From Candidatus Pacearchaeota archaeon (GTDB lineage Archaea > Nanobdellota > Nanobdellia > Pacearchaeales > GW2011-AR1): 64,000 bases of DNA. The stretch's first letter is position 1; every line of letters begins with the position of its first letter. Positions 12,036-52,963 of the stretch are shown piece by piece. Where the stretch lies: assembly GCA_016188825.1 (NCBI GenBank), contig JACPHA010000011.1:7427-71426 (forward strand), read 5' to 3'. Both the position numbers and the translations under genes were made by a program. Under the pieces are notes generated by a model that saw only the letters and a program-made list of their open reading frames with translations, was not told the origin of the DNA and did no database searches.

Positions 12036-12181
12036 AAACAGAAGAAACAAAAAGCGAGAAAACGATGTTATGGAATGAAAAAGAGGGTTTTGGAAACGGA
12101 TAAAATTCGTTCTGGGTCCTATAAAAACTTGACCTCTATAATAACCAAAAAGTTTAAAAACTTGACCTTTCTAGTCATCAA

Positions 12182-28501: not shown

Positions 28502-29968
28502 TTATTTCACTCTTGTCTTGACGAGCTTTCCGAGTGAAAGAAGGCTTTCGCCTTTTATGACTTGATTTATTATATTTTTTATTTGTGAAATTTGAACTCT
28601 GACTTGCTCGGTTGTATCGCGGTCGCGAATTGTTATTGTTTTGTCTTTTACTGTCTGCTCGTCAATTGTTATGCACATTGGTGTCCCTATTTCGTCGTTT
28701 CGAGAATACCTGCGGCCGATGCTTCCTGAATCATCGTGGATGACATTAAAATCTTCTTTTAGTTCTTTCACAAGTTTTTCTGCAATCTCTATCATTTTTT
28801 CATTTTTTACTATTGGAAAAACTGCCGCCTTTATCGGCGCGAGGAAAGCAGGCAGCTTTAAAACAACATTTTCTCTTTTTTTGTCATAGTTATATGATTC
28901 GCATAGAAGAGCGAGGAAAATTCTTTCTATTCCAAAAGTAGGTTCAATGACCCTTGGAACTATTCTTTTTTTTGTTTTTTCGTCAAAAATAGAGAGATTT
29001 TCTCCTGATTCTTTCATATGCTGTGTTAAATCAAACTGGCCACGATTTGCGTTACCTGCTATTTCTTTGCTGCCGAATGGATATTCGTAGTCAAGGTCAA
29101 ATGTTGCGGATGAGTAATGACTTAGCTCTGATTTTGTATGCTCGCGGATTTTTATTTTGTTTGAAATTCCTAGGCTGGAAAACCAGAGTAATTGTTCAGA
29201 GAGCCAGTAGGCATGCCACTCATCAAGCTTTTTTTCATTTGCCATTTCACCGATTGTGGTTTCTCTTATTGTTTCTTTCTTTTTTTGTGGGGTTTTAGCG
29301 TCGAGAAGACGGACTTTTATTTTTTTATGCTTTTCATCTAGCAATGGACAGTTTTTTTCTTCTGGGCGTATGAAGAATTCGAATTCTGCTATTGTGAATT
29401 CTCTGCTTCTGAATAAAAAATCACGAGGAGCTATTTCGTTTCTGAAGCATTTCCCTATTTGCGCTATGCCGAATGGAAGTCCCATGCGCGAGGTTTCCTG
29501 CACAAGGCGGAAATCTGTAAACATGCCTTGTGCGTTTTCTCCGCGCAGATAAGATTCTGTCGGGCTTAAAGCTCCCACTTGCGTTTTGAACATTAAGCTG
29601 AATTCTCCAAGGCTTTGATATTCACCGCCGCACCCGCATTTTACTTTTCCGAAGTCTGATTTGTCTATTTTTGTTGCTTTTTTGCACCTTTTGCATATTA
29701 CTGCGAGGTCATTGAAACTTGCCAAATGCCCTGATGCTTTCCATATTCTTGGATGAGATATGATTGAGTTTTCAATGCCGACAATATTATCTTTCTGCTG
29801 AACAAAGAATTTCCAGAAGCTGTTTTTTATATTATTATATAGTTCTACTCCTAATGGACCGAAGTCCCAGAAGCCGGAAAAGCCACCATAGATTTCGCTC
29901 GACCTGAATACAAAGCCCTTGCGCTTGCAGAAAGTGGCAAGCTCGTCAATTGTTAATTTTTCAGCCAT
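28502..29968 (-). CDS. glyS: glycyl-tRNA synthetase (archaeal/eukaryotic alpha2 type)
   Basis: 488 aa. GKCFRNEIAPR (motif 2 region), EPTFGIERI, and a C-terminal anticodon-binding domain. Confidence 0.9.
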   Translation of the reverse strand: MAEKLTIDELATFCKRKGFVFRSSEIYGGFSGFWDFGPLGVELYNNIKNSFWKFFVQQKDNIVGIENSIISHPRIWKASGHLASFNDLAVICKRCKKATKIDKSDFGKVKCGCGGEYQSLGEFSLMFKTQVGALSPTESYLRGENAQGMFTDFRLVQETSRMGLPFGIAQIGKCFRNEIAPRDFLFRSREFTIAEFEFFIRPEEKNCPLLDEKHKKIKVRLLDAKTPQKKKETIRETTIGEMANEKKLDEWHAYWLSEQLLWFSSLGISNKIKIREHTKSELSHYSSATFDLDYEYPFGSKEIAGNANRGQFDLTQHMKESGENLSIFDEKTKKRIVPRVIEPTFGIERIFLALLCESYNYDKKRENVVLKLPAFLAPIKAAVFPIVKNEKMIEIAEKLVKELKEDFNVIHDDSGSIGRRYSRNDEIGTPMCITIDEQTVKDKTITIRDRDTTEQVRVQISQIKNIINQVIKGESLLSLGKLVKTRVK

Positions 29969-30063
29969 TGTAAAAAATAGGAAAAAGGATATTTAAATTG
30001 TTTCGTGATGTTAATTCGAGTTGTAAGCCTTACAACAAGGGGTTTTTTCGTAGTGATGTAAAA

Positions 30064-39749: not shown

Positions 39750-40967
39750 TTACCATTTTGGTTTTTTTCCGGTGAGGAAATAGGCAAAAGTTAAAACATA
39801 AGTAAATGCGAGAATCCAGAGATAGATTGTTATAGTAAGGAAATAGTCTTTCAATGTTATTTTTTCTTTAAATTCCGACTTTGTTATGAATAAGATTATT
39901 GTGCCGATGAATACTGCTATGAACATTAGAATTATTCTTAATTCTGTGCTGGCGATGAAAAGTCTTTCTAAATCTGGAGAAAAAGAAGGAATCCAGCCGG
40001 CGAGAAGCCAGGTTATTCTGTTATATACCCAAGATGAAAGCATGTAAATTCCTAGTAAGAAGGCTATTGAAACAATAAAAATACTCACAAGGCCAAATGG
40101 GAGAATGAAAATTCCTAAATCACCATAAAGAGAATTGAAAAATAATTTCCTGTATTTTTTGTAATTATAAAACGTTCCATAAGCCCAGCGCCTCCTTTGT
40201 CTGATTAGTGAATGTAGATTGTCTGGAACAACTGTTAGTGCATAGGAGTGTGCTTCATAGCCCATATTATAGTGGTTACTTTGGATTCTTAGACCCATTT
40301 CGAAATCTTCAGTTAAATTATTTTTTTCAAAGTAGCCATGTTTGTCAAAGAATTTTTTTCTATATATGGTGAACGCAGGGGCTACAGGGAGGGAGCTTAA
40401 TTTGCTTGTAATCATACGATAAAAGCCTGCGAGAGTGTATTCGACATACTGCATTCTTTCAATTAATTTTTTATTATTAAGAGGTTTTAGTCTTGATGTA
40501 ACGGCCATTGTTGCAGAATCTGAAAACAAGGAAACAGATTTTTCAAGCAAGTCCTGTTTAATTAGCGTATCTGAATCCAAAACTACTAAAAAAGGAGTTT
40601 TTACTTTTTTTATTCCGAAGTTTACTGCCTCTGCTTTGCCGCCATTTGTTTTGTTAAACACTTGGACTCTGGAATATTTTTTTTCTAGCGATTTAGCTAC
40701 TTTAAGAGTATTGTCTGTCGAGCCATCATTGACAACTATTATATTAATTTTTTCTTTATCGTATTTTGCATTTTTTATTGAGCGAATTGTTTTTTCCAAG
40801 ACATTTGCGCAGTTATATGCAGGAATAACAAATGTTATTTTATGATAAGCTAATTTTATGTTTGTAGGAAGAGATCTTTGTTTTATGTAAAAAATTAAAA
40901 AGAAGAAAGCTATAGCAAACTCAATGAAGAATATTGTGTAGATTATTGACAAGGTTATATCAGCCAT
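39750..40967 (-). CDS. processive family-2 glycosyltransferase (membrane-embedded, chitin/cellulose/PNAG-synthase-like)
   Basis: VIPAYNCANVLEKTI, VVNDGSTDNT, VVLDSDT and QRRRWAYG (the Q-x-x-RW motif), with TM helices at both ends. ATG 40967 preferred. Confidence 0.8.
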   Translation of the reverse strand: MADITLSIIYTIFFIEFAIAFFFLIFYIKQRSLPTNIKLAYHKITFVIPAYNCANVLEKTIRSIKNAKYDKEKINIIVVNDGSTDNTLKVAKSLEKKYSRVQVFNKTNGGKAEAVNFGIKKVKTPFLVVLDSDTLIKQDLLEKSVSLFSDSATMAVTSRLKPLNNKKLIERMQYVEYTLAGFYRMITSKLSSLPVAPAFTIYRKKFFDKHGYFEKNNLTEDFEMGLRIQSNHYNMGYEAHSYALTVVPDNLHSLIRQRRRWAYGTFYNYKKYRKLFFNSLYGDLGIFILPFGLVSIFIVSIAFLLGIYMLSSWVYNRITWLLAGWIPSFSPDLERLFIASTELRIILMFIAVFIGTIILFITKSEFKEKITLKDYFLTITIYLWILAFTYVLTFAYFLTGKKPKW

Positions 40968-41511
40968 TTTGTTTTTCCTGTTGATTCTGTTCTTGCAATT
41001 TTTCTCCTTGTGCAAGATGGAAATATTCATAGAAGCTTTCAGACAGCGAGAGGATTGCTGTATGCCCGGCCTTTTTTTTATTTAGCAAGCCAATCTCAAC
41101 AAATTTTTTTATGTGGTCATATGCTTTGTTGCCGCGAATTTTTACTACAACAGATTGTTTCATTGGTTGTTTATAGGCTATCATCGCAAGTGTCTCCTGC
41201 TCTGCTTTGCTGAATTCTGAAGAGCCGGTTGCAAGCCGGTTTACTATCCAGGTGTAATTTTCGGAAACATCCATTTTCCACATGTTGTCTTTTTGCGTTA
41301 TTATTATTCCTGAATCTTTGTATTTATCCTGTAAGTCAAATAGGATTTTTTTCAATAAAATCGGGTTTACATCTGTAAGGGAAATTAATTCTTGAAGAGA
41401 CATGAAGCGGCCGGCTATGAACAGGACAGCTTCGACTTTTTTCGTGTTTTCTGCCTCTATTTCTGTGTCGAGCTCTTGAATGCTTTTTTCGCTTATATTT
41501 TTCATTGACAT
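40960..41511 (-). CDS. scpB: segregation and condensation protein B
   Basis: 183 aa. VEAVLFIAGRFMSLQELI and a second wHTH with ...AGHTAILSLSESFYEYFHL, typical of ScpB. Confidence 0.7.
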   Translation of the reverse strand: MSMKNISEKSIQELDTEIEAENTKKVEAVLFIAGRFMSLQELISLTDVNPILLKKILFDLQDKYKDSGIIITQKDNMWKMDVSENYTWIVNRLATGSSEFSKAEQETLAMIAYKQPMKQSVVVKIRGNKAYDHIKKFVEIGLLNKKKAGHTAILSLSESFYEYFHLAQGEKLQEQNQQEKQNG

Positions 41512-41624
41512 TTTTCTTTTTTAATTAATTACAGTTAAAGAATAGGAGTTTTAAATATTATTGCAGAGAGCCGAATGCTTTGCCGAAGAAAGATTTATAT
41601 ACTATAGCTATATATATTATTGTT

Positions 41625-41849
41625 ATGGAAACAACAATACAAGTTAGTAGAGAACTTTTAGAAGCCCTGAAAAAAAGAAAATTGGTGGAGAAGGAGAGTT
41701 ACGAGAGAGTTATTTGGGATTTAGTTGAGGATACAATGGAATTATCAGAAGAAACGAAAAAAGAGATTACCGAAGCGCGCGCAGAGATCAAATCAGGAAA
41801 GGTTCATCGCTGGGTAGACATAAAAAAGGAGTTGAAATTGGATGTATGA
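41625..41849 (+). CDS. antitoxin partner of the RelE/ParE toxin
   Basis: METTIQVSRELLEALKKRK... Overlaps the toxin start by 8 nt. Confidence 0.55.
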   Translation: METTIQVSRELLEALKKRKLVEKESYERVIWDLVEDTMELSEETKKEITEARAEIKSGKVHRWVDIKKELKLDV

Positions 41850-42099
41850 AATTATTTTTACAGATAAGGCAAAAAGGCAATTTCTTAAATTAGAAAAAAA
41901 GTACCAAGAAAGAATAGGAGCAGTTTTGGAAAGAATTAAAATAAGGCCAGAACATTTTGTCGAAAAAATTGTAGGAGATCTCGGATATAAATTAAGAGTA
42001 GGAGATTACAGGCTAATTTTAGATATTGATAAAAATAAGCTTTTAATTTTGATTCTTAAAGTCGGACACAGAAAAAATATATACAAAAACCAAATTTAA
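41842..42099 (+). CDS. RelE/ParE-family toxin
   Basis: 85 aa. YEIIFTDKAKRQFLKLEKKYQERI...LRVGDYRLILDIDKNKLLILILKVGHRKNIY. Confidence 0.8.
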   Translation: MYEIIFTDKAKRQFLKLEKKYQERIGAVLERIKIRPEHFVEKIVGDLGYKLRVGDYRLILDIDKNKLLILILKVGHRKNIYKNQI

Positions 42100-42116
42100 T
42101 ATTTATTTTTTAGAAA

Positions 42117-42707
42117 TCATTCCAGCAAAACAATCAGAAGGCCCTCGATGACTGCCGCGATGAGCAAAAGAGGAATTATGAGCATGAGAAAGGCATTCAT
42201 CGAATTGTAAAATCTTTTTTTGAATTCTTGTGTTTTGTTTGGGTTTTTTGAGAAAATGTAGAAGCCGAGTTTCATGCCGAGGCCGAATGAAATGAAAATT
42301 GCGGGGAGCTCAAAAATTCCGTGAGGAAGGAGTCGCCACCATGATGTAAAGCCCGCTATTTCGTATGTTTTATTGAGGACAAAACCGATGACAACACCGT
42401 TTGCTAATGCTGTTGCAATTGGAAAAATTCCGAGAAAAATGCCGAGCAGGACAGAAAACAAAGCACTTTGCAAGTTATTTTGCAGTATAAAGAAAATCAT
42501 TTCAATCGCGTTTAAATCTTTTGTTTGCGAAATCAATTCTCTGATGTATTTTTCTATCTGCAGGGCAAATTGGTCGCTGAAAATAAAACCAATCATTGCG
42601 CTGAAAATGAAAATGAAAATTGAGAAATAAATTAAATTGGAGCAGGATTTTATGTAGGAAACTGCTTCTTTGAACTGATGTTTTGCGTTTAAATGGTTTT
42701 TTTTCAT
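42117..42707 (-). CDS. SpoIIM-family (DUF95) membrane protein
   Basis: 196 aa. NNLQSALFSVLLGIFLGIFPIATALANGVVIGF and HGIFELPAIFIS patterns. Confidence 0.65.
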   Translation of the reverse strand: MKKNHLNAKHQFKEAVSYIKSCSNLIYFSIFIFIFSAMIGFIFSDQFALQIEKYIRELISQTKDLNAIEMIFFILQNNLQSALFSVLLGIFLGIFPIATALANGVVIGFVLNKTYEIAGFTSWWRLLPHGIFELPAIFISFGLGMKLGFYIFSKNPNKTQEFKKRFYNSMNAFLMLIIPLLLIAAVIEGLLIVLLE

Positions 42708-42844
42708 TTTTGGATTTTATTGAGTAAATTGAACGTTATTAGTATTAAAATAGTTTGATTGATATTGATGGCATCTTAGAAGATGATTTAATAGGCTTTT
42801 CATATTATTTTTAGACAAATATACTTTTTAACTCTATCTGAAAA

Positions 42845-43549
42845 TTACCTGAAAAATTTTTGAAGACGCGCTACTTTTTTTCTGTATTTTATTTTTAGAT
42901 AAAGTCCATAAAGGAAACCGACGAGGAAACCGCCGAAATGTGCGACATTGCCAATTGGCCAGTTAAATACTATGCTTAAAATCCACATTGTTATCATGAC
43001 TAAAGGAACCATTATGTACGCTGGAAGAGAAAAGAAAGGCAGAAACAAAATCATGAATTTGATTTTTGGCAAGAGAGTAACGTAGAGACCAGCTATTGCA
43101 AAAATTGCTCCAGAGGCGCCGACCATGAATACGTCAGGGGCGCCGAAGATTCTGGAGCCGAGTTCAGAAGAGCCGAAATAGTATGAGAGCAGAACTGAAA
43201 TAAGGCCAGCGAATAAACCAGCAGAAAGATAAAACCAGACAAACCTTTTTCTGCCAATTATTTTTTCACACAAACCGCCGAGAGAAAAGAGAACAAACAT
43301 ATTTATTAATAAGTGGGCGGGACTGCCATGGGCGAACATATGGGACAGAATCGTCCAGAGGTATTTGCCTTGCATTATGTTTTCGGGTTTTAGTGCGAGA
43401 TAATTGATATAATCTTCTGAAATGCGAATCAAGATAAATGTGAAAAGGGAAAATACGACACTAAGAATTATCAGCCAAGTTACGACGGAAAACTTTGCAA
43501 TTCTTTCTGATAGAGCCGGCTTGCGCCTTGAGTAGTTATGACTATTCAT
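42845..43549 (-). CDS. rhomboid-family intramembrane serine protease
   Basis: HMFAHGSPAHLLINMF, GASGAIFA (catalytic Ser) and the AHFGGFLVG (His) motifs. Confidence 0.9.
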   Translation of the reverse strand: MNSHNYSRRKPALSERIAKFSVVTWLIILSVVFSLFTFILIRISEDYINYLALKPENIMQGKYLWTILSHMFAHGSPAHLLINMFVLFSLGGLCEKIIGRKRFVWFYLSAGLFAGLISVLLSYYFGSSELGSRIFGAPDVFMVGASGAIFAIAGLYVTLLPKIKFMILFLPFFSLPAYIMVPLVMITMWILSIVFNWPIGNVAHFGGFLVGFLYGLYLKIKYRKKVARLQKFFR

Positions 43550-44331
43550 TTCTTTTTACGCCTCTTTTTTCTTTTTCTGAAGAATTTTTTTGCAAATTTG
43601 GAAAATCTTTTTTTAACTTTAATTTTTTTTCTTGCCTTAGTTATTTTTTTAGAATGTTTTGGTTTATTTTTTATTTTTTTATTTAATTTTACTTTTTCCC
43701 TTTTCCTCTGCCTTTTTCTTTTTTTTCTTTCAAGTTCTTTCTGTCTTTGTTCTTCTTTAATTCTTTTTTCTTTGGCTTTCAGCTCTTTTGATTCAATCAT
43801 TTTGATTTCTGCGCCAATCAAAGACAAAATATTTTCAAGTTTGCTGATTTCTGATTTTATCTTTTCTATTGTTTCTGTATTATCTTTTATCTCAAGAGTT
43901 TCGCCGCATTCAGGGCAAGTATAATTATGAAGCAGAGCATCTTCCTCGTTAAATTCGGAATCGCAATTTTTACAATAGTAGAAGCGCGTTCTCTGCCAGT
44001 CGTTTATCTGATTCTGGTGTTTTTCAATTTCTTTTTTTATTTTTCCTTCATATTTTTGAAGACTTTTTTTTATGTTCAGCGTCCAGAAGTACGTATACCA
44101 GCCACCTTTTTTCTTATCTTTTTTTCTGACAAAACCCACAACTCCTTCTTCTCCTAACTTGTATAAGATATTTCTGGTTTGGTTTATTGTCAAGCCCAGT
44201 TTTTTTGCTATGAGAAATTCATTGACATTATTTTTTTTGTAAAGCAAGTCAACTAATTTTTCCGAAACCTGTCCGGAAAGCTCTATTATTATTTTCTTTA
44301 GAAGTTTTTGGAGGTTGATTTCGGCTTTCAT
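43546..44331 (-). CDS. tfe: transcription factor E (TFE/TFIIE-alpha homolog) with a long basic C-terminal tail
   Basis: N-terminal wHTH (FLIAKKLGLTINQTRNILYKL), zinc ribbon CKNC...CPEC, then about 85 aa of K/R-rich sequence. Confidence 0.8.
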   Translation of the reverse strand: MKAEINLQKLLKKIIIELSGQVSEKLVDLLYKKNNVNEFLIAKKLGLTINQTRNILYKLGEEGVVGFVRKKDKKKGGWYTYFWTLNIKKSLQKYEGKIKKEIEKHQNQINDWQRTRFYYCKNCDSEFNEEDALLHNYTCPECGETLEIKDNTETIEKIKSEISKLENILSLIGAEIKMIESKELKAKEKRIKEEQRQKELERKKRKRQRKREKVKLNKKIKNKPKHSKKITKARKKIKVKKRFSKFAKKFFRKRKKRRKKK

Positions 44332-44474
44332 TGATATCTTTAAAAAACCCGCATTAAAAATCTTTCTGTTTTTTTTGCTATGTTTTTGTTAATAGTATTT
44401 TATCGTCGTCACGATTTTGTATTAATTTTATAGTTAATATAAATATATAAAAGGAGAGTTAGAAATTTAGATAT

Positions 44475-45035
44475 ATGTTCTTTGGAAAAAAAAGAGATGA
44501 GAAGGGTCTTCCTGATTTGCCGATGCCGAAAACTCCTTTTGATAGGGATTTGAGCATGCAGAGAGAAGAAGTTAATTCTCTGCCTTCATTTCCTGATTCG
44601 CCGTCTCATAACAGGTTTTCGGAAGCAGCCATAAAAGATGCGGTGAATGCGGAAGAAGAGGTAGAAGATTCAGAGAATTGGAAGCAGGGAGCGGACGATA
44701 TGGAAAAGAAAGGAAAATTGGTAGAGGTTGATGACGCTGATGAGCGTGATTTGACAGAAACCATGGAAGAACCAAGGAGAGTGCCCAGCAGATATTCAAG
44801 GGGGACCGTTGGCGGAGAAGCAGATGTTTTTGTTAGAATTGATAAATTTCATTCTGCAAGAAGAGCTTTGCATGAGGTCAGGAGCAAATTGAGAGAGATT
44901 GACGAAACTATCAAGAGAATTAGGGATATTAGGATTAGAGAAGAACAGGAGCTTGCGGGATGGGAGAAAGATTTGGGCAATGTTAAGGCACGGATGAGGG
45001 ATGTTACAGAAAATATTTTTGAAAAAATAGCGTGA
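44475..45035 (+). CDS. hypothetical protein (acidic N-terminus, coiled-coil C-terminus)
   Basis: 186-aa ORF. No motif recognised. Confidence 0.45.
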   Translation: MFFGKKRDEKGLPDLPMPKTPFDRDLSMQREEVNSLPSFPDSPSHNRFSEAAIKDAVNAEEEVEDSENWKQGADDMEKKGKLVEVDDADERDLTETMEEPRRVPSRYSRGTVGGEADVFVRIDKFHSARRALHEVRSKLREIDETIKRIRDIRIREEQELAGWEKDLGNVKARMRDVTENIFEKIA

Positions 45036-45036
45036 A

Positions 45037-45393
45037 ATGACTTCAGAATATGTTAGAGTTTCTGCATCGGAAAAAGCTTTTGGGCATACCGGGCTTCTAA
45101 ACGGACAGCTTGAGCTGTTGGATATAATGAAGAAAGTCAGAAATTATCGGACAGTTAGGAATGAAGAGCTTATGCTTAAAATTGTTTTGAAGGCAAAGAT
45201 AGGAGAACTTCTCGAGGCTATTGAAAAACTTGAAAAAACACTTCCTGAGAGTTATTTTAAAGCTGAAGTGCCTAAGGCAAAAAAAGAGAGGATGAGCGCA
45301 GAGAATAGAAAGGAGCTTGAAGAACTTGGATTGCAAGGGGAAATAGACGAGATAAGGAGAAAGTTGGATAGATTGCAGAGTGGCAGATGGTAG
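45037..45393 (+). CDS. hypothetical coiled-coil protein
   Basis: 118-aa ORF starting 2 nt after the previous stop, so probably co-transcribed with it. Confidence 0.45.
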   Translation: MTSEYVRVSASEKAFGHTGLLNGQLELLDIMKKVRNYRTVRNEELMLKIVLKAKIGELLEAIEKLEKTLPESYFKAEVPKAKKERMSAENRKELEELGLQGEIDEIRRKLDRLQSGRW

Positions 45394-45538: not shown

Positions 45539-46213
45539 TTACTTGAAAATCTTTAATTTTAATAAACGAAACTTGACTCCTAAAAATATTAAGAGACTCA
45601 TATTTTTCATATTAGTTCCGGCAGTTTGCCAATCCTTAACAGACTCTGTTGGGTAGATAAGATTTAAAATGTTAAGAGCCAGATTATCTCTTATCATATA
45701 AAGAGTAAAAAGCTCTAGTGCTATTGCTAAAGTTGCCGTCAGCCAAGGAGGTAATTTACGGGCAAGAATAAATCCAAGGCCCATTGAAAACACATCAAAA
45801 ACTGAATTAATGATGCTGTCCCCATAATAATCAAGAGCAAAAGTAGCGGTTCTGTATCTGTTTATTATAAACGGAGAGTTTTCAAAAACTTCCCATGAAG
45901 TTTCTATCAAAAGAGCAAATAAAAATCTTGTTTTTACAGGCAAACGCTTGGCCACCGACCTTAATAAAAAATAATAAAACATGCCATGGATAATATGGGA
46001 AAAACTATACCAGTCAAACAAATGCTGCGAATTTCCAGGCCCATTTACATTATTATACCAAAACAGAACATAATTGCATTTGCATATGACAAGCCTTCCC
46101 ATTAAATACTCAATAAGTCCCATAGCTAGAATTATTAAAACTGCAACCAAAATTAAAACCCATAAATGGTTGTCGTAATATTTCTTTAAATTATCTACGC
46201 TCTTTTTTAGGTT
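45539..46213 (-). CDS. DUF2585/UPF0314-like membrane protein (start uncertain)
   Basis: The WYSFSHIIHGMFYYF pattern and several TM segments. The start was trimmed so the gene does not overlap alaS. Confidence 0.5.
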   Translation of the reverse strand, partial: NLKKSVDNLKKYYDNHLWVLILVAVLIILAMGLIEYLMGRLVICKCNYVLFWYNNVNGPGNSQHLFDWYSFSHIIHGMFYYFLLRSVAKRLPVKTRFLFALLIETSWEVFENSPFIINRYRTATFALDYYGDSIINSVFDVFSMGLGFILARKLPPWLTATLAIALELFTLYMIRDNLALNILNLIYPTESVKDWQTAGTNMKNMSLLIFLGVKFRLLKLKIFK

Positions 46214-46353
46214 CATGAGTAACACAATATTCATTGATTTATATATTTTTAATACCGGTGATTTGATACATGTATCCCCGAGGCGCATGTCTATGCGCAA
46301 CATAACCGAATATTCTGGGGAATCTTTATATATCATTTTAGTTTTGTTTATGA

Positions 46354-48501
46354 ATGAGAATAAAGACGAGAGAGGAGCTGGTAAAAGCATATATTGAATT
46401 TTTCAAGGAAAAGGGGCATAAGGAAGTTCCTTCAGCATCGCTGATTCCTGAAAATGACCCGACTGTTTTGTTCACAACTGCGGGGATGCAACCGCTTTCT
46501 CCTTATCTAATTGGGGAAAAACATCCGCTTGGTGAAAAACTGGTTAGTGTGCAGAAGTGCATCAGGACACAAGATATTGACGAGGTTGGAGACGAATTCC
46601 ATCATACTTTTTTTGAAATGCTTGGAAATTGGTCTTTTGGAGATTATTTTAAGAAGGAAGCCATTGAATATAGTTTTGAATTTTTGACTCGCGTCTTGAA
46701 AATTCCATTTGAGAAGATTGCAGTCAGTGTTTTTTCAGGAGACAAAGACTCCCAGCAAGATATTGATTCTGCTTTGATTTGGAAATCTCTTGGAATTTCT
46801 GAAAAGAGAATTGCTTATTTGCCAAAGAAAAATAATTGGTGGGGGCCTGTTGGCAAGACAGGGGTGTGCGGGCCCGACACAGAAATGTTTTATTGGAGCG
46901 GAGAGGGGAAGGTGCCAGAGAAATTTGACCATGAAGACAAGAGATGGGTTGAAATTTGGAATGATGTTTTTATGCACTATAACAAAACTCAGATAAAACT
47001 AATCTTGGTAGATGCGATAAATTGTTTAATTGATAAGGAAAATGGACTTAATAGAGAATTAGCTGAAATTTTAAAAAATAAAAATAAAAAAATAATAGTT
47101 GTGACAAATGCCGACATTAAAGAGATAAAGTCAAAATTAAATGGTTATGATTTTGAAGTATTTAGTTTAATGAAAAATCCTGACAAATCTAACCCTGATT
47201 ATTTTAGAGAATTTTTGAAAAGATATAATTTAAAGAAAGAAGAGATTATTTATTTTGATCACAAAGAAGAAAATGTTAAATCTGCAAAGCAAGTTGGGAT
47301 AGTTTCTGAAATTTATAAGAACAATAAACAAATTAAAGATTTTATAGAAAAGAATTCATACAGATATGAAACATTGAAACAAAAAAACGTTGATACTGGA
47401 ATGGGTGTTGAGAGAACCATAGCAGTGCTAAATGGTTTCGGTGATAATTACTTGACAACAATATTTGAGCCGATAATCAGAGAGTTAACAATAATTTCCG
47501 GGAAGAGATATGAGGCAGAGAATAAAAAAGCGATGAGAATAATTGCAGACCATTTGCGGGCGGCCACGTTTATTCTTGGAGATGAGAGAGGAGTGAAACC
47601 GAGCAATGTTGAGCAAGGATATGTTTTGAGAAGGCTGGTAAGAAGAGCAATAAGATATGCTAGAATTTTGGGCATAAAAGAAAAATTCACAAAAAATGTT
47701 GCAGAGGTTGTGATTTTGTTATATGATGATTATCCTGAATTGAAAAAAAACAAGGAGTTTATTTTGAGCGAGTTGGGAAGAGAAGAAGGAAGGTTTATGA
47801 TGACAATTGTCAAAGGATTGAAAAAATTTGAAGAGATAATTGGAAATTCACATAAGATAATTTCAGGAAAGGACGCGTTTTTGCTTTTTCAGAGCTATGG
47901 GTTTCCGATTGAGATGACAGTTGAGCTGGCTCGAGAGAAAAAATTTGAGGTTGATGTTGTTAGTTACGACGAGGAATACAAGAAACATCAGGAGCTGAGC
48001 AGAACATTGTCTGCCGGAGTTTTTAAATCAGGGTTGGCCGATGATTCTGAAAAAACAACAAGATTGCATACAGTGACACATCTGCTAAATGAGGCTTTAA
48101 AAGTTGTTCTCAATGATAGAAATATAAAGCAGAGGGGCTCGAACATAACGCCGGAAAGATTGAGGTTTGATTTTAATTTTAATAGGAAATTGACAAAAGA
48201 GGAGCTGGAAGAAATTGAGAAGCTTGTGAATAAAAAAATAAAAGAAGGGCTGAACGTTGTTAGAAAGGAAATGCCTTTGAAAGAAGCTATTAAATTTGGC
48301 GCGCAATCAGAGTTTGGCGCAAAATATCCTGATGTTGTTTCTGTTTATATTATAAAAGATTCCAAAGATCATAGAGGATGGTTCAGTTGTGAGATTTGTA
48401 CTGGACCGCATGTTAAAAATACAAATGAAATAGGAAATTTTAGAATAATCAAAGAAGAAAGCGTTGCTGCGGGAATAAGGAGGATAAAGGCGGTGGTTTA
48501 A
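46354..48501 (+). CDS. alaS: alanyl-tRNA synthetase with an inserted HAD-like domain and no C-Ala domain
   Basis: FTTAGMQP, HHTFFEMLGNWSFGDYFK, WNDVFMHYN ... VDTGMGVER, editing-domain HTVTHLL and CTGPHV. 715 aa. Confidence 0.9.
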   Translation: MRIKTREELVKAYIEFFKEKGHKEVPSASLIPENDPTVLFTTAGMQPLSPYLIGEKHPLGEKLVSVQKCIRTQDIDEVGDEFHHTFFEMLGNWSFGDYFKKEAIEYSFEFLTRVLKIPFEKIAVSVFSGDKDSQQDIDSALIWKSLGISEKRIAYLPKKNNWWGPVGKTGVCGPDTEMFYWSGEGKVPEKFDHEDKRWVEIWNDVFMHYNKTQIKLILVDAINCLIDKENGLNRELAEILKNKNKKIIVVTNADIKEIKSKLNGYDFEVFSLMKNPDKSNPDYFREFLKRYNLKKEEIIYFDHKEENVKSAKQVGIVSEIYKNNKQIKDFIEKNSYRYETLKQKNVDTGMGVERTIAVLNGFGDNYLTTIFEPIIRELTIISGKRYEAENKKAMRIIADHLRAATFILGDERGVKPSNVEQGYVLRRLVRRAIRYARILGIKEKFTKNVAEVVILLYDDYPELKKNKEFILSELGREEGRFMMTIVKGLKKFEEIIGNSHKIISGKDAFLLFQSYGFPIEMTVELAREKKFEVDVVSYDEEYKKHQELSRTLSAGVFKSGLADDSEKTTRLHTVTHLLNEALKVVLNDRNIKQRGSNITPERLRFDFNFNRKLTKEELEEIEKLVNKKIKEGLNVVRKEMPLKEAIKFGAQSEFGAKYPDVVSVYIIKDSKDHRGWFSCEICTGPHVKNTNEIGNFRIIKEESVAAGIRRIKAVV

Positions 48502-48553: not shown

Positions 48554-48898
48554 TTATTCCAAACCCAAGCTAATTTTCATTGCCAAATCAACCTTTTCCA
48601 TGATCTCGATGCCCAAAGAAGAAATCTTTTTTCTTATCCTTAATTTATCAATTGTTTTTATTTGATTTAACAAAATAGTAGAATTTCTATCCAAATTTGA
48701 ATCTGTCTTAAATAAAAAAACATTCGTTGGATATTCTTTTTTATAAAATTTAGATGTTATTGGGGCGACAATTGTCGTTGGAGAATACTTATTATAAATA
48801 TTATTCTGTACAACTAGTGCAGGTCTAATTCCCCCTTGTTCGCTATCTTTAACTGGCTCAAAATCGACAAGAACAATATCTCCTCTTTTAATCTCCAT
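48554..48898 (-). CDS. MazF/PemK-family toxin
   Basis: IKRGDIVLVDFEPVKDSEQGGIRPALVVQNN...TIVAPITS. ATG 48898 overlaps the antitoxin end by 11 nt. Confidence 0.85.
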   Translation of the reverse strand: MEIKRGDIVLVDFEPVKDSEQGGIRPALVVQNNIYNKYSPTTIVAPITSKFYKKEYPTNVFLFKTDSNLDRNSTILLNQIKTIDKLRIRKKISSLGIEIMEKVDLAMKISLGLE

Positions 48899-49091
48899 CT
48901 TTCCATTCCCAGTCAAAATCTTCGTCAATAGCTTGAAACTCCTTTGTTATCTTTAAACTTTCTTCTGCTGTCTCTTTAGCCCCTTCTATCATTAAATCAA
49001 TATGTCTTCTTTTTTGCTCTTCAACCTGCTTCATAATTTTTACAATAATATCTTCATAAGTTTCTTTGCTAGTTTCTTTCATTCTATCCAA
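48888..49091 (-). CDS. antitoxin partner of MazF (N-terminus possibly longer)
   Basis: 67-aa ORF with a TTG start. The upstream in-frame codons read TIYIQLNKNVKKSL (an RHH-like strand) but have no canonical start. Confidence 0.5.
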   Translation of the reverse strand: MDRMKETSKETYEDIIVKIMKQVEEQKRRHIDLMIEGAKETAEESLKITKEFQAIDEDFDWEWKDGD

Positions 49092-49137: not shown

Positions 49138-49530
49138 CTAAGAATTCAACCTCACAACACCATTTTCTTTTTTTATTAAGTTTGTTCCTTTAATAATGTC
49201 GCCGGTGATGTTTTGGACAGGATAGGCTGCCGCGTACTCATTGTTTAAAGTACGGATGTAAATTAAATTTTGGGTTATGTTGACTTCGTATTGCATGCCG
49301 GAAATTCTTTCAGGCACAAAAAACTGGCGTTGATAGCCATCGGTTGCTTTTGATGCAAGATCGATTTCGTTTTTTATATCATTTGCTGTTTTTTGAAATG
49401 CGTAATTTCTTTTCTGGATTGTTTTATCTGCAATGTCCTGCTGGAAGACAAAAAGAATGGTTAAGAAAAAAAACAAAACGCCGCCGATTAAAATCATGAA
49501 CTCAATTGCTGATTGGGATTTTTTTTTCAT
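49138..49530 (-). CDS. type IV pilin-like protein (class III signal peptide)
   Basis: MKKKSQSAIEFMILIGGVLFFFL: a basic stretch, then the QSAIEF processing-site pattern, then a hydrophobic helix. Confidence 0.7.
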   Translation of the reverse strand: MKKKSQSAIEFMILIGGVLFFFLTILFVFQQDIADKTIQKRNYAFQKTANDIKNEIDLASKATDGYQRQFFVPERISGMQYEVNITQNLIYIRTLNNEYAAAYPVQNITGDIIKGTNLIKKENGVVRLNS

Positions 49531-49535
49531 GTTGA

Positions 49536-49958
49536 TTAAACCAGTGTTAATTCTACGCGTTCAGGATTAGATTTTATTTCAAGCTTTATTTTTTTTACTC
49601 CGGGAGTTGGAGTAATCGTGCCTTGAATCGGAACATTGCTAGAATAAGCAATTACAGATGTTCCAGAACTTGTTGAGACGTTAAATATTATGTCTTTGTT
49701 TTGTATCGTGACTGCTTGAACTCCTTCAGGAAGATAAGCAGAGATTGTTGTCCTTGAGGGTTCTCCAGAATAGTAGATTCTTTCTGCAGAAGAAGTTATT
49801 TTTTTTGCAAATTGCTCGAGCTGGGAGAATTTTATTGAATCTTTTATTTCTGCTGAATAAAATAGTGCAATGCCTAAAATAGACAGAGCTACAAAAGTTA
49901 CGAAAGAAATTACGATCAAGTATTCTACACTGATTTGACCTCTTTTTTTATCAAGCAT
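49536..49958 (-). CDS. type IV pilin-like protein (class III signal peptide)
   Basis: MLDKKRGQISVEYLIVISFVTFVAL is a class III signal peptide pattern. Confidence 0.7.
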   Translation of the reverse strand: MLDKKRGQISVEYLIVISFVTFVALSILGIALFYSAEIKDSIKFSQLEQFAKKITSSAERIYYSGEPSRTTISAYLPEGVQAVTIQNKDIIFNVSTSSGTSVIAYSSNVPIQGTITPTPGVKKIKLEIKSNPERVELTLV

Positions 49959-50910: not shown

Positions 50911-50923
50911 AAGTAAATAGAAC

Positions 50924-52963
50924 ATGAAAAAAAGAGGTAAAGCAGAGCATAAAGAAGAGAAAAAAGCAAAACCCGAAAAAAGAATCGAAGACAGAAAGTT
51001 AAGAGCGGAAACAAAGAAAATTTTGCAGAAATTAACTTTTGATTTTGGAAAAGCCGATAAGGAATTTTTTCAAGATAAAACTACTGTGAAAGAGGAAGAA
51101 GAAAAAACACCGACGCCGGAATTAAAAAATGAGACAGAGAGCAAGGCTGAAGAAGGCATGCAGGAACAAGCGGCGCAGATTGAGCCAAAGGATCTCGAAA
51201 GAAAACAAATAAATGAGGGTTATTCAAAGTTCCCGATTAAAAAAGAAGAACCAGAGTTAATTAATAGGATTGTTGGAAAAACTGAAGGGGAAAAAGCTGA
51301 AAAATTTGAAGAATTAGAAGAAGGAGAAAAGGGAGAAGGAATTTTTGAGGAGGAAGGTGAAGAGGATAATTTTGAAACTGAGAGAGCTGAAATAGAGAGG
51401 AAACTTGAGGCAGTTAAGAAAGGAGAAAAAGAGACTAAAGTTATAGAGCTGAGACATCCTGCCTACAAAGGAAAGGCCAAGGTTCTGGAGGTTTATGAAA
51501 TTGACGTTGATGGAGCGAAAGTAAAGGTTGAGATAACAAAAGACCAGATGGGCACCAATTATAATCTGCATATACCAAGAGTAAGCCCCGCCACGGCGGC
51601 GCTGCTCGAAGAAATTAGGAATGAGCTCATAAGTGCGACGACGATAAGCATGAAAGAGCTTGTTGATCCGGATTCTTTTTCTTTTTTGAAGAAGAGGTTT
51701 ATTGAAGATGCGAGAAAAGTTTTGAAAGAGAAGCTTCCTAATTTAGAGAGAGTCCCTGAAAATTTTCTTGTTGGAATCTTAATACAGGAAATGCTTGGCT
51801 TGGGAAAAATAGAATTTTTGATAGAGGACCCGAATCTTGAAGAGATTGTAATTCCGTCGGCGAAAGAATACATAAGAGTTTACAGCAAAAAATATGGCTG
51901 GCTTTTAACAAATGTAAAAGTGGAAAGGGAGGAGGAGATAGTTAATTATTCTAATATAATAGCGAGGAGAGTTGGGAGGCAGATAACTGTTTTGAATCCT
52001 TTGCTTGATGCGCATTTGGTTACAGGAGACAGGATTAACGCAGTTTTGTATCCGATAGATACCAAAGGAAACACGATAACAGTCAGAAAATTTGCGAGAG
52101 ATCCCTTTACGATAATTGATTTTATTAATAACAATACTTGCAACCCGGAAATTTCTGCGCTGCTTTGGCTTGCGATAGAGTTTGAGATGAATATACTGAT
52201 TTCCGGCGGAACAGGTTCTGGAAAAACTTCTTTTTTAAATGCGTGCCTTCCGTTTATACCGCCGAACCACAGAATTATCAGTATTGAAGATACGAGGGAG
52301 CTTGTGCTGCCTGAATTTTTGTACTGGACTCCTCTTGTAACAAGAACTGCAAACCCTGAAGGAAAGGGAGAAGTCAGCATGCTTGATTTGCTTATTAATT
52401 CATTAAGAATGAGGCCTGATAGAATTGTCCTCGGGGAAATGAGAAGGCAACAGGAAGCAATGGTTTTGTTTGAGGCAATGCATACAGGACATTCTGTTTA
52501 TGCCACTGTGCACGCAGATACCGCTGCTGAAACTATTTCAAGACTTGTTAATCCTCCACTGAATGTTCCTCCGAATTTATTGAGGGCGGTTAATTTGAAT
52601 GTTGTTATGTTCAGAGACAGGAGGAGGGGCATAAGGAGAGTATTACAGATTGCAGAGCTAGAGGCATCAAAGGGAGGAGCGCAGGCAAATATTTTATATA
52701 GGTGGAGTCCAGAGTTGGATAAGATAATCAAGCACAGCGAGAGCTTCAGATTTTTTGAAGATGTTAGCAGGCACACGGGAATGTCACAGGCAGAGATTAA
52801 AAAGGACATAGAAGAAAAAATAAAAATTTTGTCCTGGCTTGTTGCTCACAGTGTCAGAGACATGGAATCGTTCGGCAATGTGATGAATTTGTATTATAAG
52901 AATAAAGAATTTCTTTTGCGCGCAATAAATAGAGGAAACAAGAGCGCAATTCTTGGGAAATAA
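50924..52963 (+). CDS. type II/IV secretion-family ATPase (FlaI/PilB/TadA-like) with an N-terminal Glu/Lys-rich extension of about 200 aa
   Basis: Walker A ISGGTGSGKTSFLN, IISIEDTREL, RMRPDRIVLGEMR, TGHSVYATVHA. Confidence 0.9.
   Translation: MKKRGKAEHKEEKKAKPEKRIEDRKLRAETKKILQKLTFDFGKADKEFFQDKTTVKEEEEKTPTPELKNETESKAEEGMQEQAAQIEPKDLERKQINEGYSKFPIKKEEPELINRIVGKTEGEKAEKFEELEEGEKGEGIFEEEGEEDNFETERAEIERKLEAVKKGEKETKVIELRHPAYKGKAKVLEVYEIDVDGAKVKVEITKDQMGTNYNLHIPRVSPATAALLEEIRNELISATTISMKELVDPDSFSFLKKRFIEDARKVLKEKLPNLERVPENFLVGILIQEMLGLGKIEFLIEDPNLEEIVIPSAKEYIRVYSKKYGWLLTNVKVEREEEIVNYSNIIARRVGRQITVLNPLLDAHLVTGDRINAVLYPIDTKGNTITVRKFARDPFTIIDFINNNTCNPEISALLWLAIEFEMNILISGGTGSGKTSFLNACLPFIPPNHRIISIEDTRELVLPEFLYWTPLVTRTANPEGKGEVSMLDLLINSLRMRPDRIVLGEMRRQQEAMVLFEAMHTGHSVYATVHADTAAETISRLVNPPLNVPPNLLRAVNLNVVMFRDRRRGIRRVLQIAELEASKGGAQANILYRWSPELDKIIKHSESFRFFEDVSRHTGMSQAEIKKDIEEKIKILSWLVAHSVRDMESFGNVMNLYYKNKEFLLRAINRGNKSAILGK

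What the first reader, a model, noticed from the sequence alone, without database searches (positions are those of the whole stretch)
46990..47358. AlaRS catalytic core interrupted in frame by a ~120-aa HAD-like domain
In AlaRS enzymes the segment between WN-x-VFMQ(Y/F)N and (I/V)DTGMG-x-ER is about 20 residues; E. coli has [32 protein letters not shown]. Here WNDVFMHYN (aa 202-210) and VDTGMGVER (aa 346-354) are separated by about 135 residues. The extra residues resemble a haloacid dehalogenase fold. IKLILVDAINCLID matches HAD motif I (hhhhDxDxT), but the second Asp is Ile. KIIVVTNA matches motif II. KNPDKSNPDYFREFLKRYNLKKEEIIYFDHKEENVKSAKQVGI matches motifs III/IV, with DH in place of GD. 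The frame is continuous and both flanks are canonical, so this is not an assembly join between two genes. I am not aware of a described AlaRS carrying such an insert. The degenerate catalytic residues suggest a structural or binding role rather than phosphatase activity.
Basis: partly seen in the sequence, partly recalled or inferred. Interest (0 to 1): 0.68.

Follow-up and report, generated by a model that had tools for sequence, protein, structure and literature searches.

The report
Mobile mini-HAD domain inside AlaRS
The alanyl-tRNA synthetase of this Pacearchaeota archaeon really carries a compact, cap-less HAD-type domain spliced in frame into a hairpin of its catalytic core. This domain behaves as a cassette that has been gained, lost and swapped among related AlaRS genes, and it also turns up in other synthetases and housekeeping proteins of ultra-small archaea and bacteria.

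Summary
ORF 46354-48501 encodes a 715-aa short-form AlaRS. Aa 213-337 (nt 46990-47364) replace the 4-residue turn of a catalytic-core hairpin with a 125-aa domain. Pfam, NCBIfam, AlphaFold and Foldseek all assign this domain to the HAD fold, without a cap.

It is not an artefact. Fifty-four of the 120 closest homologues, from independent assemblies, carry the insert at the same site. The other 66 have a 13-14-aa hairpin. Both forms sit in the same syntenic locus.

The insert's history is decoupled from that of the host gene.
- Parsimony needs 22-30 gains or losses.
- One fully supported clade holds two insert types plus empty alleles.
- In one pair the insert has pS 0.31, while the flanking AlaRS is saturated at 0.74. 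This indicates recent transfer of the cassette alone.
- Omega is 0.13, so the insert is under purifying selection.

The same module exists as free-standing 125-aa genes. It is also embedded in ValRS, LeuRS, LysRS, GyrA, uL22 and an SNF2 helicase.

The nucleophile Asp, Lys and Asp-His are conserved everywhere, but Asp+2 never is. The pocket therefore looks functional rather than degenerate. Its substrate is unknown. No description was found in the searchable literature.

The parts
46354..48501 (+). Alanine--tRNA ligase gene. It encodes a 715-aa short bacterial-type form without a C-Ala domain and is the only AlaRS in the window.
   Evidence: ORF. NCBIfam NF002436 scores 760 bits (cut-off 529) and TIGR00344 scores 546 bits (cut-off 457); Pfam finds tRNA-synt_2c plus tRNA_SAD. 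phmmer of the core against all window ORFs finds only this ORF.
46354..46989 (+). N-terminal part of the class II catalytic core (aa 1-212). It ends with the strand VEIWNDVFMHYNKT. N203 and V205 are invariant and align to the WN-x-V motif of the A. aeolicus structure.
   Evidence: Invariant columns. Aligns to 1RIQ residues 6-205. Model strand E198-213.
46990..47364 (+). The insert, aa 213-337: a cap-less HAD-fold module with 5 strands and 5 helices. It replaces the 4-residue turn of the hairpin.
   Evidence: The HMM built from 51 inserts matches aa 214-336 at 172 bits.
47011..47025 (+). HAD motif I, D220-A-I222-N-C224. The nucleophile Asp is invariant. The acid/base Asp+2 is replaced by Ile (Ile, Val or Met throughout the family).
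47104..47109 (+). HAD motif II, T251-N252. The Thr is present here and in 'A-type' inserts but is Val in 'G-type' inserts. The Asn is at least 90% conserved.
47185..47187 (+). HAD motif III lysine, K278.
   Evidence: At least 90% conserved in the inserts and invariant in 32 free-standing homologues.
47257..47274 (+). HAD motif IV, D302-H303-K-E-E-N307. The family hallmark is [DE]-H...N.
47365..47415 (+). Return strand of the hairpin and class II motif 3 (YETLKQKNVDTGMGVER, aa 338-354). D347, G349, G351 and R354 are invariant.
   Evidence: Model strand E336-351.
48067..48411 (+). Editing-domain zinc/catalytic motifs are intact. H572-x3-H576 lies at 48067-48081 and C682-x3-H686 at 48397-48411.
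   Evidence: Invariant columns H572, H576, C682, H686. tRNA_SAD scores 54 bits. AlaXM-like match at aa 567-713.
40963..45393 (.). Conserved syntenic neighbourhood of the AlaRS gene: ScpB, SpoIIM, rhomboid and TFIIE-alpha on the minus strand, then two small unknown ORFs on the plus strand. It is shared by insert-bearing and insert-less loci.

Best explanation
The gene is the organism's working alanyl-tRNA synthetase. A 125-aa cap-less HAD-family module is nested at the tip of the long beta-hairpin that lies between the WN-x-VFM strand and motif 3 of the class II core.

Shown:
- The hairpin strands simply extend, and the module folds as an independent Rossmannoid domain.
- All AlaRS catalytic and editing residues are intact.
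- The module is a discrete genetic cassette. Orthologous AlaRS genes at the same chromosomal locus either lack it or carry one of at least two sequence types. Its phylogeny is uncoupled from that of the host gene.
- In at least one case the cassette, with no more than about 10 flanking codons on either side, moved recently between AlaRS genes whose own synonymous sites are saturated.
- It is kept under purifying selection.
- It belongs to a family that also exists as free-standing ~125-aa genes in Nanoarchaeia and CPR-like bacteria. The family is also fused to or nested in ValRS, LeuRS, LysRS, GyrA, uL22 and an SNF2 helicase. One free-standing copy overlaps the stop codon of a GlyRS gene.

Inferred:
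- Spread occurs by short-patch recombination or gene conversion. It would use the two ultra-conserved AlaRS motifs that flank the permissive hairpin as homology arms.
- The conserved pocket (Asp nucleophile, Lys, Asp/Glu-His, Asn, no Asp+2) still binds, and probably turns over, a phosphorylated small ligand with a good leaving group. Candidates are pyrophosphate, an acyl- or nucleotidyl-phosphate, or a nucleotide. The invariant His next to motif IV would stand in for the missing Asp+2.
- The module therefore acts as an accessory activity tethered to aminoacylation enzymes, not as part of alanine activation itself.
For: Reality and anatomy.

Orthology and synteny of both forms. No second close copy was seen in any of the 80 species-representative genomes or in the window.

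Decoupled history:
- Spearman correlation of insert identity against core identity is 0.03-0.06, whereas two core segments correlate at 0.57.
- Fitch parsimony needs 27 changes (bootstraps 22-30), against 38 +/- 2.7 for shuffled labels. Seven sister groups that mix states have 89-100% bootstrap.
- The clade {P0119, P0076 empty; P0008, P0020 A-type; P0028 G-type} has 100% support.

Cassette transfer, P0006 versus P0086: the insert is 88% identical at the protein level, the core 62%. Insert pS is 0.31-0.32, core pS is 0.74-0.76. The high-identity tract runs from about W210 to about P352.

Selection: omega 0.13. Pocket residues are invariant or at least 90% conserved.

Free-standing genes and other hosts.
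Against: - No biochemical data exist. The ligand and any catalysis are inferred only from residue conservation.
- Motif II Thr is lost in half of the inserts, and Asp+2 is absent from the whole family. Both argue against an ordinary phosphomonoesterase.
- One lineage (P0040) carries a decayed copy lacking K and D-H. The host can therefore live with a dead module.
- Unsaturated synonymous evidence for recent transfer rests on a single pair. All other pairs are saturated.
- The trees are neighbour-joining trees on a star-like radiation.
- Neighbourhoods of free-standing copies are heterogeneous, and only one group sits next to an aaRS.
- Several other-host examples are single contigs: GyrA P0178, ValRS P0163 and P0173, uL22 P0126.
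Confidence: 0.5

Rival explanations
1. The module is a non-catalytic structural or docking domain. It would be a pseudo-enzyme that provides an extra surface. That surface might bind tRNA or the ribosome, or form homotypic contacts that assemble synthetases. It might also compensate for the missing C-Ala dimerisation and tRNA-binding domain of this short-form AlaRS.
For: - Asp+2 is absent everywhere, and motif II Thr is absent in G-type inserts.
- The AlaRS lacks C-Ala.
- The module recurs on proteins that bind nucleic acids or belong to the translation apparatus: AlaRS, ValRS, LeuRS, LysRS, uL22, GyrA and SNF2.
- Cap-less (C0) HADs typically face macromolecular substrates (established knowledge, Burroughs et al. 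2006).
- Eukaryotic synthetases use degenerate GST-fold domains in an analogous way (established knowledge).
Against: - A purely structural role does not explain invariance of the buried nucleophile Asp. It also does not explain the at least 90% conservation of Lys, Asp-His and Asn in every context, including free-standing genes.
- Most closely related AlaRS do well without the module. It therefore does not compensate for a general defect of the short form.
- It also occurs on a flavin reductase and a VTT membrane protein.
Confidence: 0.25
2. The module is a selfish or neutral in-frame passenger. It lands in permissive loops next to ultra-conserved sequence of essential genes. It persists because imprecise deletion would be lethal, and it spreads by recombination. 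It would give no benefit to the host, by analogy with Rickettsia palindromic elements or with inteins that do not splice.
For: - The presence/absence pattern is patchy, with more than 20 changes.
- Two cassette types occupy the identical site within one tight clade.
- The cassette transfers with very short flanks.
- There is a decayed copy in P0040.
- G+C is lower than in the host gene.
- Hosts are essential genes, and the sites lie next to very conserved motifs.
Against: - No mobility enzyme, terminal repeats or target duplication were seen at the junctions.
- Omega of 0.13 and conservation specifically of HAD pocket residues go beyond what staying folded would require.
- The family has many free-standing chromosomal genes in ordinary operons. 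This fits a normal enzyme family that is repeatedly fused.
Confidence: 0.2
3. The insert is removed before the enzyme functions, either as an intein (protein splicing) or as an archaeal bulge-helix-bulge intron (RNA splicing). The mature AlaRS would then be canonical.
For: Like inteins, the insert sits in a conserved region of an essential gene and is sporadically distributed.
Against: - There is no Hint or intein hit in Pfam or NCBIfam.
- The junction residues are variable. There is no Cys/Ser/Thr at the first insert position or the +1 position, and no His-Asn at the end.
- The domain is a complete HAD fold, and its termini continue the host hairpin at pLDDT above 90.
- BHB-like motifs at the junctions are not more frequent than in shuffled sequence: 13 against 8.7 +/- 6.2.
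- The module is also a terminal fusion on LysRS and uL22, where splicing makes no sense.
Confidence: 0.03
4. The insert is an assembly or binning chimera that joins a HAD gene into an AlaRS gene.
For: There is a G+C dip across the insert. Read coverage could not be checked.
Against: - The same architecture occurs in 54 distinct proteins from NCBI, JGI, ENA and Logan assemblies, and in 6 species-representative genomes.
- The frame is continuous, and the two halves of the AlaRS core are each incomplete without the other.
- Some proteins recur on several independent contigs.
Confidence: 0.01

Closest known systems
Lineage-specific insertion domains between motifs 2 and 3 of class II synthetases. 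Examples are the bacterial ProRS INS editing domain and the bacterial AspRS GAD insertion domain. NCBIfam also has NF040702, 'isoleucine--tRNA ligase, N-acetyltransferase domain-containing'.
   Same: A whole folded domain is nested in frame in the catalytic core of an aaRS, and the core motifs stay intact. The site lies between class II motifs 2 and 3. An enzyme-like fold is grafted onto a synthetase.
   Different: - The fold is HAD, which was not found described for any aaRS in the searches made.
- The insert is not fixed in a lineage. It is polymorphic among close orthologues and exchanged as a cassette.
- The same module also occurs in class I synthetases, LysRS, GyrA and uL22, and as free-standing genes.
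HAD superfamily, subfamily IA variant 3 (TIGR01509). Characterised relatives include E. coli YihX and the N-terminal phosphatase of soluble epoxide hydrolase. The 137-aa cap-less protein 2PR7 of Corynebacterium glutamicum is also close.
   Same: - Rossmannoid core, nucleophile Asp, motif III Lys, and a motif IV of the 'DD/E' type.
- Scores are above the Pfam and TIGR01509 cut-offs.
- Foldseek TM values are 0.6-0.77, with the best whole-chain match to 2PR7.
   Different: - There is no C1 cap. Only about 30 residues and a single helix lie between motifs I and II.
- Asp+2 is always hydrophobic.
- Motif II Thr is dispensable.
- A conserved His follows the motif IV acid.
- No member is characterised.
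Inteins, and in-frame selfish DNA such as Rickettsia palindromic elements.
   Same: - Sporadic presence at one precise site in a conserved region of an essential gene.
- Recurrent occupation of the same site.
- Lateral movement with very short co-transferred flanks.
- In-frame translation within a surface loop, as for RPEs.
   Different: - There is no Hint domain, no splicing residues, no homing endonuclease, and no palindromic or repeat structure.
- The element encodes a conserved enzyme-family fold that also has ordinary free-standing genes.
Short-form AlaRS lacking C-Ala (NCBIfam NF002436 / PRK01584), found in DPANN, CPR and some Bacilli.
   Same: The host protein is a full-score member at 760 bits (cut-off 529). 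It has the same domain order and the same 16-17-residue VFM-to-DTG segment in the ancestral state.
   Different: It carries 121 extra residues at the hairpin tip.

Membership tests
Alanine--tRNA ligase (class II, short form NF002436) | Whole-protein score above the curated equivalog cut-off | tested here: met
   NF002436 scores 760.2 bits against a cut-off of 529. TIGR00344 scores 546.1 bits against 457.
Alanine--tRNA ligase (class II, short form NF002436) | Catalytic-core residues conserved (Arg of motif 2, WN-x-V strand, D-x-G-x-G-x-E-R of motif 3) | tested here: met
   R71, N203, V205, D347, G349, G351 and R354 are invariant in 75 sequences with and without the insert. The protein aligns to 1RIQ across both halves.
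Alanine--tRNA ligase (class II, short form NF002436) | Editing domain with HxxxH and CxxxH zinc motifs | tested here: met
   H572, H576, C682 and H686 are invariant. tRNA_SAD scores 54 bits.
Alanine--tRNA ligase (class II, short form NF002436) | Aminoacylation activity, and being the only AlaRS of the cell | not testable with these tools
   No second AlaRS is present in the 64-kb window. None of the 80 species-representative genomes returned appears twice in the list. Whole genomes could not be scanned, and no activity data exist.
HAD superfamily | Rossmannoid alpha/beta core fold | tested here: met
   The insert model has pLDDT 95.9 with 5 strands and 5 helices. Foldseek gives probability 1.0 and TM 0.58-0.77 to HAD structures. 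Pfam PF00702 scores 33.6 bits, above the 26.4 cut-off.
HAD superfamily | Motif I nucleophile Asp at the end of strand 1 | tested here: met
   D220 is invariant in 51 inserts and at least 90% conserved in free-standing homologues.
HAD superfamily | Motif I second Asp (Asp+2, general acid/base of phosphatases and mutases) | tested here: not met
   The window has I222. The position is Ile, Val or Met in all inserts and in free-standing and other-host homologues.
HAD superfamily | Motif II Ser/Thr | tested here: inconclusive
   T251 is present here and in A-type inserts and most free-standing proteins. It is Val in G-type inserts. The neighbouring N252 is at least 90% conserved.
HAD superfamily | Motif III Lys and motif IV acidic residue(s) | tested here: met
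   K278 and D302 are at least 90% conserved. The Lys is invariant in free-standing proteins. Motif IV is [DE]-H.
HAD superfamily | Mg2+-dependent phosphoryl transfer activity | not testable with these tools
Activity is inferred only from conservation and omega 0.13.
HAD subfamily IA (C1 cap) | Helical C1 cap inserted between motifs I and II | tested here: not met
   There are 30 residues between D220 and T251. The models show only a short hairpin and one helix. Profile matches cover only the part from about profile position 55-105 onwards, although the TIGR01509 score exceeds its cut-off.
Intein | Hint fold; Cys/Ser at insert position 1; His-Asn at the insert end; Cys/Ser/Thr at +1 | tested here: not met
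   No Hint or intein family was hit. The junction residues are variable and non-nucleophilic.
Archaeal BHB intron in mRNA | Bulge-helix-bulge motif formed by the two junctions | tested here: not met
   There are 13 relaxed BHB-like candidates against 8.7 +/- 6.2 in shuffled junctions. Only one has a length that is a multiple of three. The search was crude.
Homing-type mobile element | Element-encoded endonuclease, or recurrent site-specific insertion with co-conversion of flanks | tested here: inconclusive
   Recurrent occupation of one site and a transfer tract with about 10 or fewer flanking codons are seen. No nuclease domain was found in the element or in its conserved neighbours.

The most novel reading that the evidence does not exclude
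The mini-HAD module is a new kind of mobile protein-domain cassette. It is an in-frame, non-splicing element that repeatedly homes, through short conserved flanks, into permissive loops of essential information-processing genes of ultra-small archaea (DPANN) and bacteria (CPR). Known hosts are AlaRS, ValRS, LeuRS, LysRS, GyrA and uL22. It keeps its own conserved phospho-ligand pocket. It would be one member of a wider set of small 'house-cleaning' domains (GNAT, NUDIX, Ham1, serine hydrolase) that colonise synthetases in these lineages.
Probability: 0.3. Interest if true: 0.85.

Novelty: new variant of a known kind. Interest (0 to 1): 0.72.

Why it matters
Aminoacyl-tRNA synthetases are among the most conserved proteins known. 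Their accessory domains are usually fixed, lineage-defining features with editing or tRNA-binding roles. Here an enzyme-family domain behaves as a presence/absence polymorphism in the catalytic core of an essential gene, and it moves as a unit between diverged alleles. If this holds, it gives a tractable natural example of how domain insertions arise and spread. It also points to an uncharacterised HAD subfamily that is functionally tied to aminoacylation in organisms with minimal genomes. There is a practical consequence too. NCBI names these AlaRS genes 'HAD-IA family hydrolase', so AlaRS can appear to be missing in metabolic or completeness surveys of DPANN genomes.

Tried and rejected
- Junction DNA of the close INS/empty pair P0027/P0111 and of the window showed no direct repeats or target duplication. 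Third-position identity was too saturated (50-80%) to map co-conversion tracts.
- Synonymous divergence across ten insert-bearing genes was saturated for every pair except L087/L088. Only one pair therefore gives a clean transfer signal.
- A search for a bulge-helix-bulge intron at the junctions found nothing above shuffled controls.
- The intein hypothesis was rejected on motifs and profile searches.
- An HMM search of the whole window for further copies of the module found only the AlaRS copy. The other synthetases in the window, ProRS at 8976-10454 and a class IIa enzyme at 28505-29992, lack it.
- Neighbourhoods of five free-standing homologue groups were read for functional clues. They are heterogeneous. 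Only P0314 lies next to an aaRS, overlapping the stop codon of a GlyRS gene.
- The module tree built from 122 sequences is too poorly resolved (most nodes below 50% bootstrap) to say whether the free-standing genes P0122, P0123 and P0128 gave rise to the G-type AlaRS inserts or the reverse.
- Seven literature searches and reads found no description.
- The position of the HAD pocket relative to the tRNA and the active site could not be computed, because model coordinates are not exposed.
Full report
**What is in the window.** A single ORF, 46354..48501 on the plus strand, encodes 715 aa. It is a full-score member of the short-form alanine--tRNA ligase family: NF002436 scores 760 bits against a cut-off of 529, and TIGR00344 scores 546 bits. 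Pfam finds tRNA-synt_2c plus tRNA_SAD and no C-Ala domain. All profile matches to AlaRS are split into two stretches. Against the A. aeolicus structure 1RIQ the query aligns as 7-213 and 341-550 to chain residues 6-205 and 212-426. No solved AlaRS has anything at this position. The intervening residues (aa 213-337, nt 46990-47364) score above the curated cut-offs of Pfam Hydrolase (33.6 against 26.4), HAD_2 (28.0 against 23.8) and TIGR01509 HAD-IA-v3 (38.5 against 29.4). G+C falls to 0.24 in the insert, against 0.36-0.40 in the flanks.

**Structure.** The full protein was modelled with AlphaFold2 from a 75-sequence alignment and reached pLDDT 90.5, with 91-97 across the insert. The host strands E198-213 and E336-351 form one long hairpin, and the insert is a separate alpha/beta unit at its tip. 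The insert alone gives pLDDT 95.9, with five strands and five helices. Foldseek against the PDB returns only HAD-fold proteins at probability 1.0. These include the soluble epoxide hydrolase phosphatase domain, YihX and BT2542. The best whole-chain match is the uncharacterised 137-aa cap-less protein 2PR7, with TM 0.77. Only about 30 residues and one helix separate motif I from motif II. The C1 cap that defines subfamily IA is therefore absent, even though the sequence descends from IA-like ancestors.

**It is real and recurrent.** The exact protein is in NCBI on a 157-kb Pacearchaeota contig, where it is named 'HAD-IA family hydrolase'. Among the 120 best homologues the interval between N210 and V346 is strictly bimodal: 13-14 residues in 66 proteins and 133-150 in 54. 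In species-representative genomes, both flanking motifs could be located in 73 of the 80 loci returned. The VFM-to-DTG segment is 16-17 residues in 67 of these loci, spanning DPANN, CPR and Bacilli. It is 138-144 residues in six Pacearchaeota, 'Woesearchaeota' or Nanoarchaeia MAGs. The short hairpin is therefore ancestral and the insert derived. It replaces just the 'KDGK'-type turn. Catalytic residues (R71, N203, V205, D347, G349, G351, R354) and editing-site residues (H572, H576, C682, H686) are invariant across both forms. Both forms lie in the same neighbourhood, ScpB-SpoIIM-rhomboid-TFIIE-two small ORFs-AlaRS. They are therefore orthologues at one locus. No genome among the 80 returned appears twice, and the window has one AlaRS.

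**The insert has its own history.**
- In a core-only tree, insert-bearing and insert-less proteins are interleaved.
- Mean core identity is 0.67 (INS-INS), 0.72 (empty-empty) and 0.69 (INS-empty).
- Many insert-bearing proteins have an insert-less nearest neighbour. P0027/P0111 share 88% core identity, P0008/P0119 85% and P0017/P0084 81%.
- Pairwise identity in the insert does not correlate with identity in any core segment (Spearman -0.004 to 0.06). Two C-terminal core segments correlate at 0.57.
- Fitch parsimony on a bootstrapped NJ tree of 115 sequences needs 27 changes of state (22-30 in replicates), against 38 +/- 2.7 for shuffled labels. Seven sister groups that mix states have 89-100% support.
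- The inserts fall into two sequence types, 'D-A...VVTNA...NPDKSNP' and 'D-G...LVVNGF...KKDNPEYF'. Core identity is the same within and between types: 0.665, 0.681 and 0.672.
- One 100%-supported clade contains two empty alleles, two A-type inserts and one G-type insert. This requires at least two acquisitions, or a replacement, at exactly the same site.

**Direct evidence for cassette transfer.** P0006 and P0086 have inserts that are 88% identical, in cores that are 62% identical. In the codon alignment of L087 against L088, nucleotide identity is 86-92% inside the insert and 53-76% outside. Third-position identity is 67-87% inside and 30-60% outside. The high-identity tract runs from about the WNDVFM codons to three codons past the insert. 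Beyond that point almost every synonymous site differs, even in the invariant DTGMGVER motif. Nei-Gojobori estimates for the tract are pS 0.32, pN 0.05 and omega 0.13. The cores have pS 0.75-0.76, which is saturated. The identity is about 90%, not 100%, and P0086 recurs in two independent assemblies. An assembly chimera is therefore unlikely. Other pairs are saturated throughout and so uninformative. No repeats or target duplications mark the junctions. My inference is short-patch recombination that uses the two ultra-conserved flanking motifs.

**The module family.** A profile of 51 inserts was searched against 1.84 billion representative proteins. It finds 118 proteins at E<=1e-10.
- Many are free-standing proteins of 123-135 aa that cover the whole module. 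P0122 is a genuine gene, lying in an inositol-monophosphatase / DUF59 operon on four contigs.
- P0314, named 'HAD family hydrolase [Candidatus Nanoarchaeia archaeon]', is found on dozens of contigs. It overlaps by one base the stop codon of a glycine--tRNA ligase gene.
- The same module is nested in or fused to several other proteins:
  - ValRS (P0143, P0163, P0173);
  - LeuRS (P0147, P0179 and cluster mates, P0207);
  - the C-terminus of LysRS (P0180, P0274);
  - GyrA, where it splits the DNA_topoisoIV domain (P0178);
  - the N-terminus of uL22 (P0126);
  - an SNF2 helicase (P0204);
  - a flavin reductase (45-member cluster);
  - a VTT membrane protein.
- Several of these synthetases also carry GNAT, NUDIX, Ham1 or serine-hydrolase domains. 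NCBIfam already has a model for an IleRS with a GNAT domain.
- Many homologues show W where Gly is expected, for example GyrA 'DWQGNFWSIDGDG'. I read this as code-25 (UGA=Gly) CPR bacteria translated with the wrong table. This is my inference and was not tested.
- Some other-host cases rest on single contigs.

**Is the pocket dead?** D220 is invariant. N252, K278, D302, H303 and N307 are at least 90% conserved in the inserts. The signature D-x-hydrophobic, K, [DE]-H is shared by free-standing and other-host copies. Asp+2 is never present, and motif II Thr is lost in G-type inserts. This is a conserved variant active site, not random decay. Genuine decay is visible for comparison in P0040, whose insert is 13-19% identical to the others and has lost K and D-H. 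HAD members without Asp+2 include P-type ATPases, phosphonatase and dehalogenases. They use substrates with good leaving groups or a different general base (established knowledge). I therefore infer binding, and probably turnover, of a phospho-anhydride or acyl-phosphate-type ligand, with H303 as the candidate base. The repeated linkage to five different synthetases suggests a ligand connected with aminoacylation, such as PPi, AMP or other nucleotides, Ap4A or adenylates. This is inference only.

**Alternatives.** A purely structural or docking role remains possible, but it does not explain the conservation of the pocket. A selfish or neutral passenger fits the patchiness, the recurrent site use, the short transfer tract and the decayed copy. 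It fits less well with the many ordinary free-standing genes and with pocket-specific constraint. Intein and BHB-intron readings are rejected. Assembly chimera is rejected.

**Novelty and verdict.** Domain insertions between motifs 2 and 3 of class II synthetases are a known kind (ProRS INS, AspRS GAD). The seven literature queries found no description of a HAD-fold insert in AlaRS, of its polymorphic cassette-like behaviour, or of the wider mini-HAD family on synthetases, gyrase and uL22. I rate it a new variant of a known kind, with a substantial chance that the mobility aspect is something more unusual.

Noticed in passing
window 46951-46974 and 47389-47406; homologues P0005, P0008, P0009, P0013, P0019, P0020, P0023, P0027, P0028, P0037, P0038, P0073, P0076, P0092, P0096, P0104, P0108, P0111, P0119; loci L003, L004, L010, L011, L018, L019, L036, L040, L046: A subset of these AlaRS genes, both with and without the insert, shows co-varying changes in two active-site motifs. 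EIWNDVFM becomes EIGNDV(L/I/F)M, and VDTGMG becomes (V/I)DFGGG. This looks like a compensatory Trp/Met-to-Gly/Phe swap. It is scattered over the core tree. The window itself has the canonical W/TGMG form.
   Followed up: partly
NCBI records of P0001, P0013, P0043: NCBI's annotation names the insert-bearing AlaRS 'HAD-IA family hydrolase', or 'alanine--tRNA ligase-related protein' for P0017. AlaRS would therefore look absent in annotation-based surveys of these genomes.
   Followed up: partly
P0147, P0163, P0173, P0179, P0207: Bacterial-type LeuRS and ValRS of 1250-1350 aa carry several nested enzyme domains in one polypeptide, in addition to the mini-HAD. These are GNAT acetyltransferase, NUDIX, Ham1/ITPase and a Ser_hydrolase domain. 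A Ser_hydrolase gene also lies just upstream of the GlyRS-miniHAD pair in L090-L095.
   Followed up: partly
L090-L095, 1367-3378: A free-standing 125-aa mini-HAD gene (P0314, Nanoarchaeia) starts on the last base of a glycine--tRNA ligase gene (ends at 3001, starts at 3001). This suggests translational coupling, or a fusion/fission intermediate.
   Followed up: partly
window 48554-49091 (minus strand); L086 2182-2568; L087 7645-8291; L088 2516-2722: A PemK/MazF toxin gene (112 bits) with an overlapping small upstream ORF, probably the antitoxin, lies immediately downstream of the AlaRS. Other toxin-antitoxin genes (PIN, HEPN/NTP_transf_2, MazE) occupy the equivalent position in related loci.
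   Followed up: no
P0040 (NCBI 'hypothetical protein D6817_03115'): One AlaRS carries a strongly decayed copy of the insert. It is 13-19% identical to the others and has lost the motif III Lys and the motif IV D-H, but it is still in frame and of the same length.
   Followed up: partly
loci L007-L080: The short, C-Ala-less, bacterial-type AlaRS is shared by DPANN archaea, CPR bacteria and some Bacilli/Erysipelotrichaceae. The window protein scores only 213 bits on the archaeal AlaRS model, whose cut-off is 745. This suggests inter-domain transfer of the gene.
   Followed up: no
window 49138-49958 (minus strand) and 50921-52960 (plus strand): There are two small proteins with class III (archaeal pilin-like) signal peptides, and a T2SSE-family secretion/pilus ATPase nearby.
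   Followed up: no
window 3484-4743 and 12158-13444; L087 6236-7519: Two paralogous AAA_14/DUF4143 ATPase genes lie in the window. A homologue sits next to the AlaRS in a related locus.
   Followed up: no
window 45539-46390 (minus strand): A DUF2585 membrane-protein gene (230 bits) lies between the conserved upstream ORFs and the AlaRS in this genome. It is absent at this position in L085 and L087. Its stop-to-stop frame overlaps the AlaRS start by about 35 nt.
   Followed up: no
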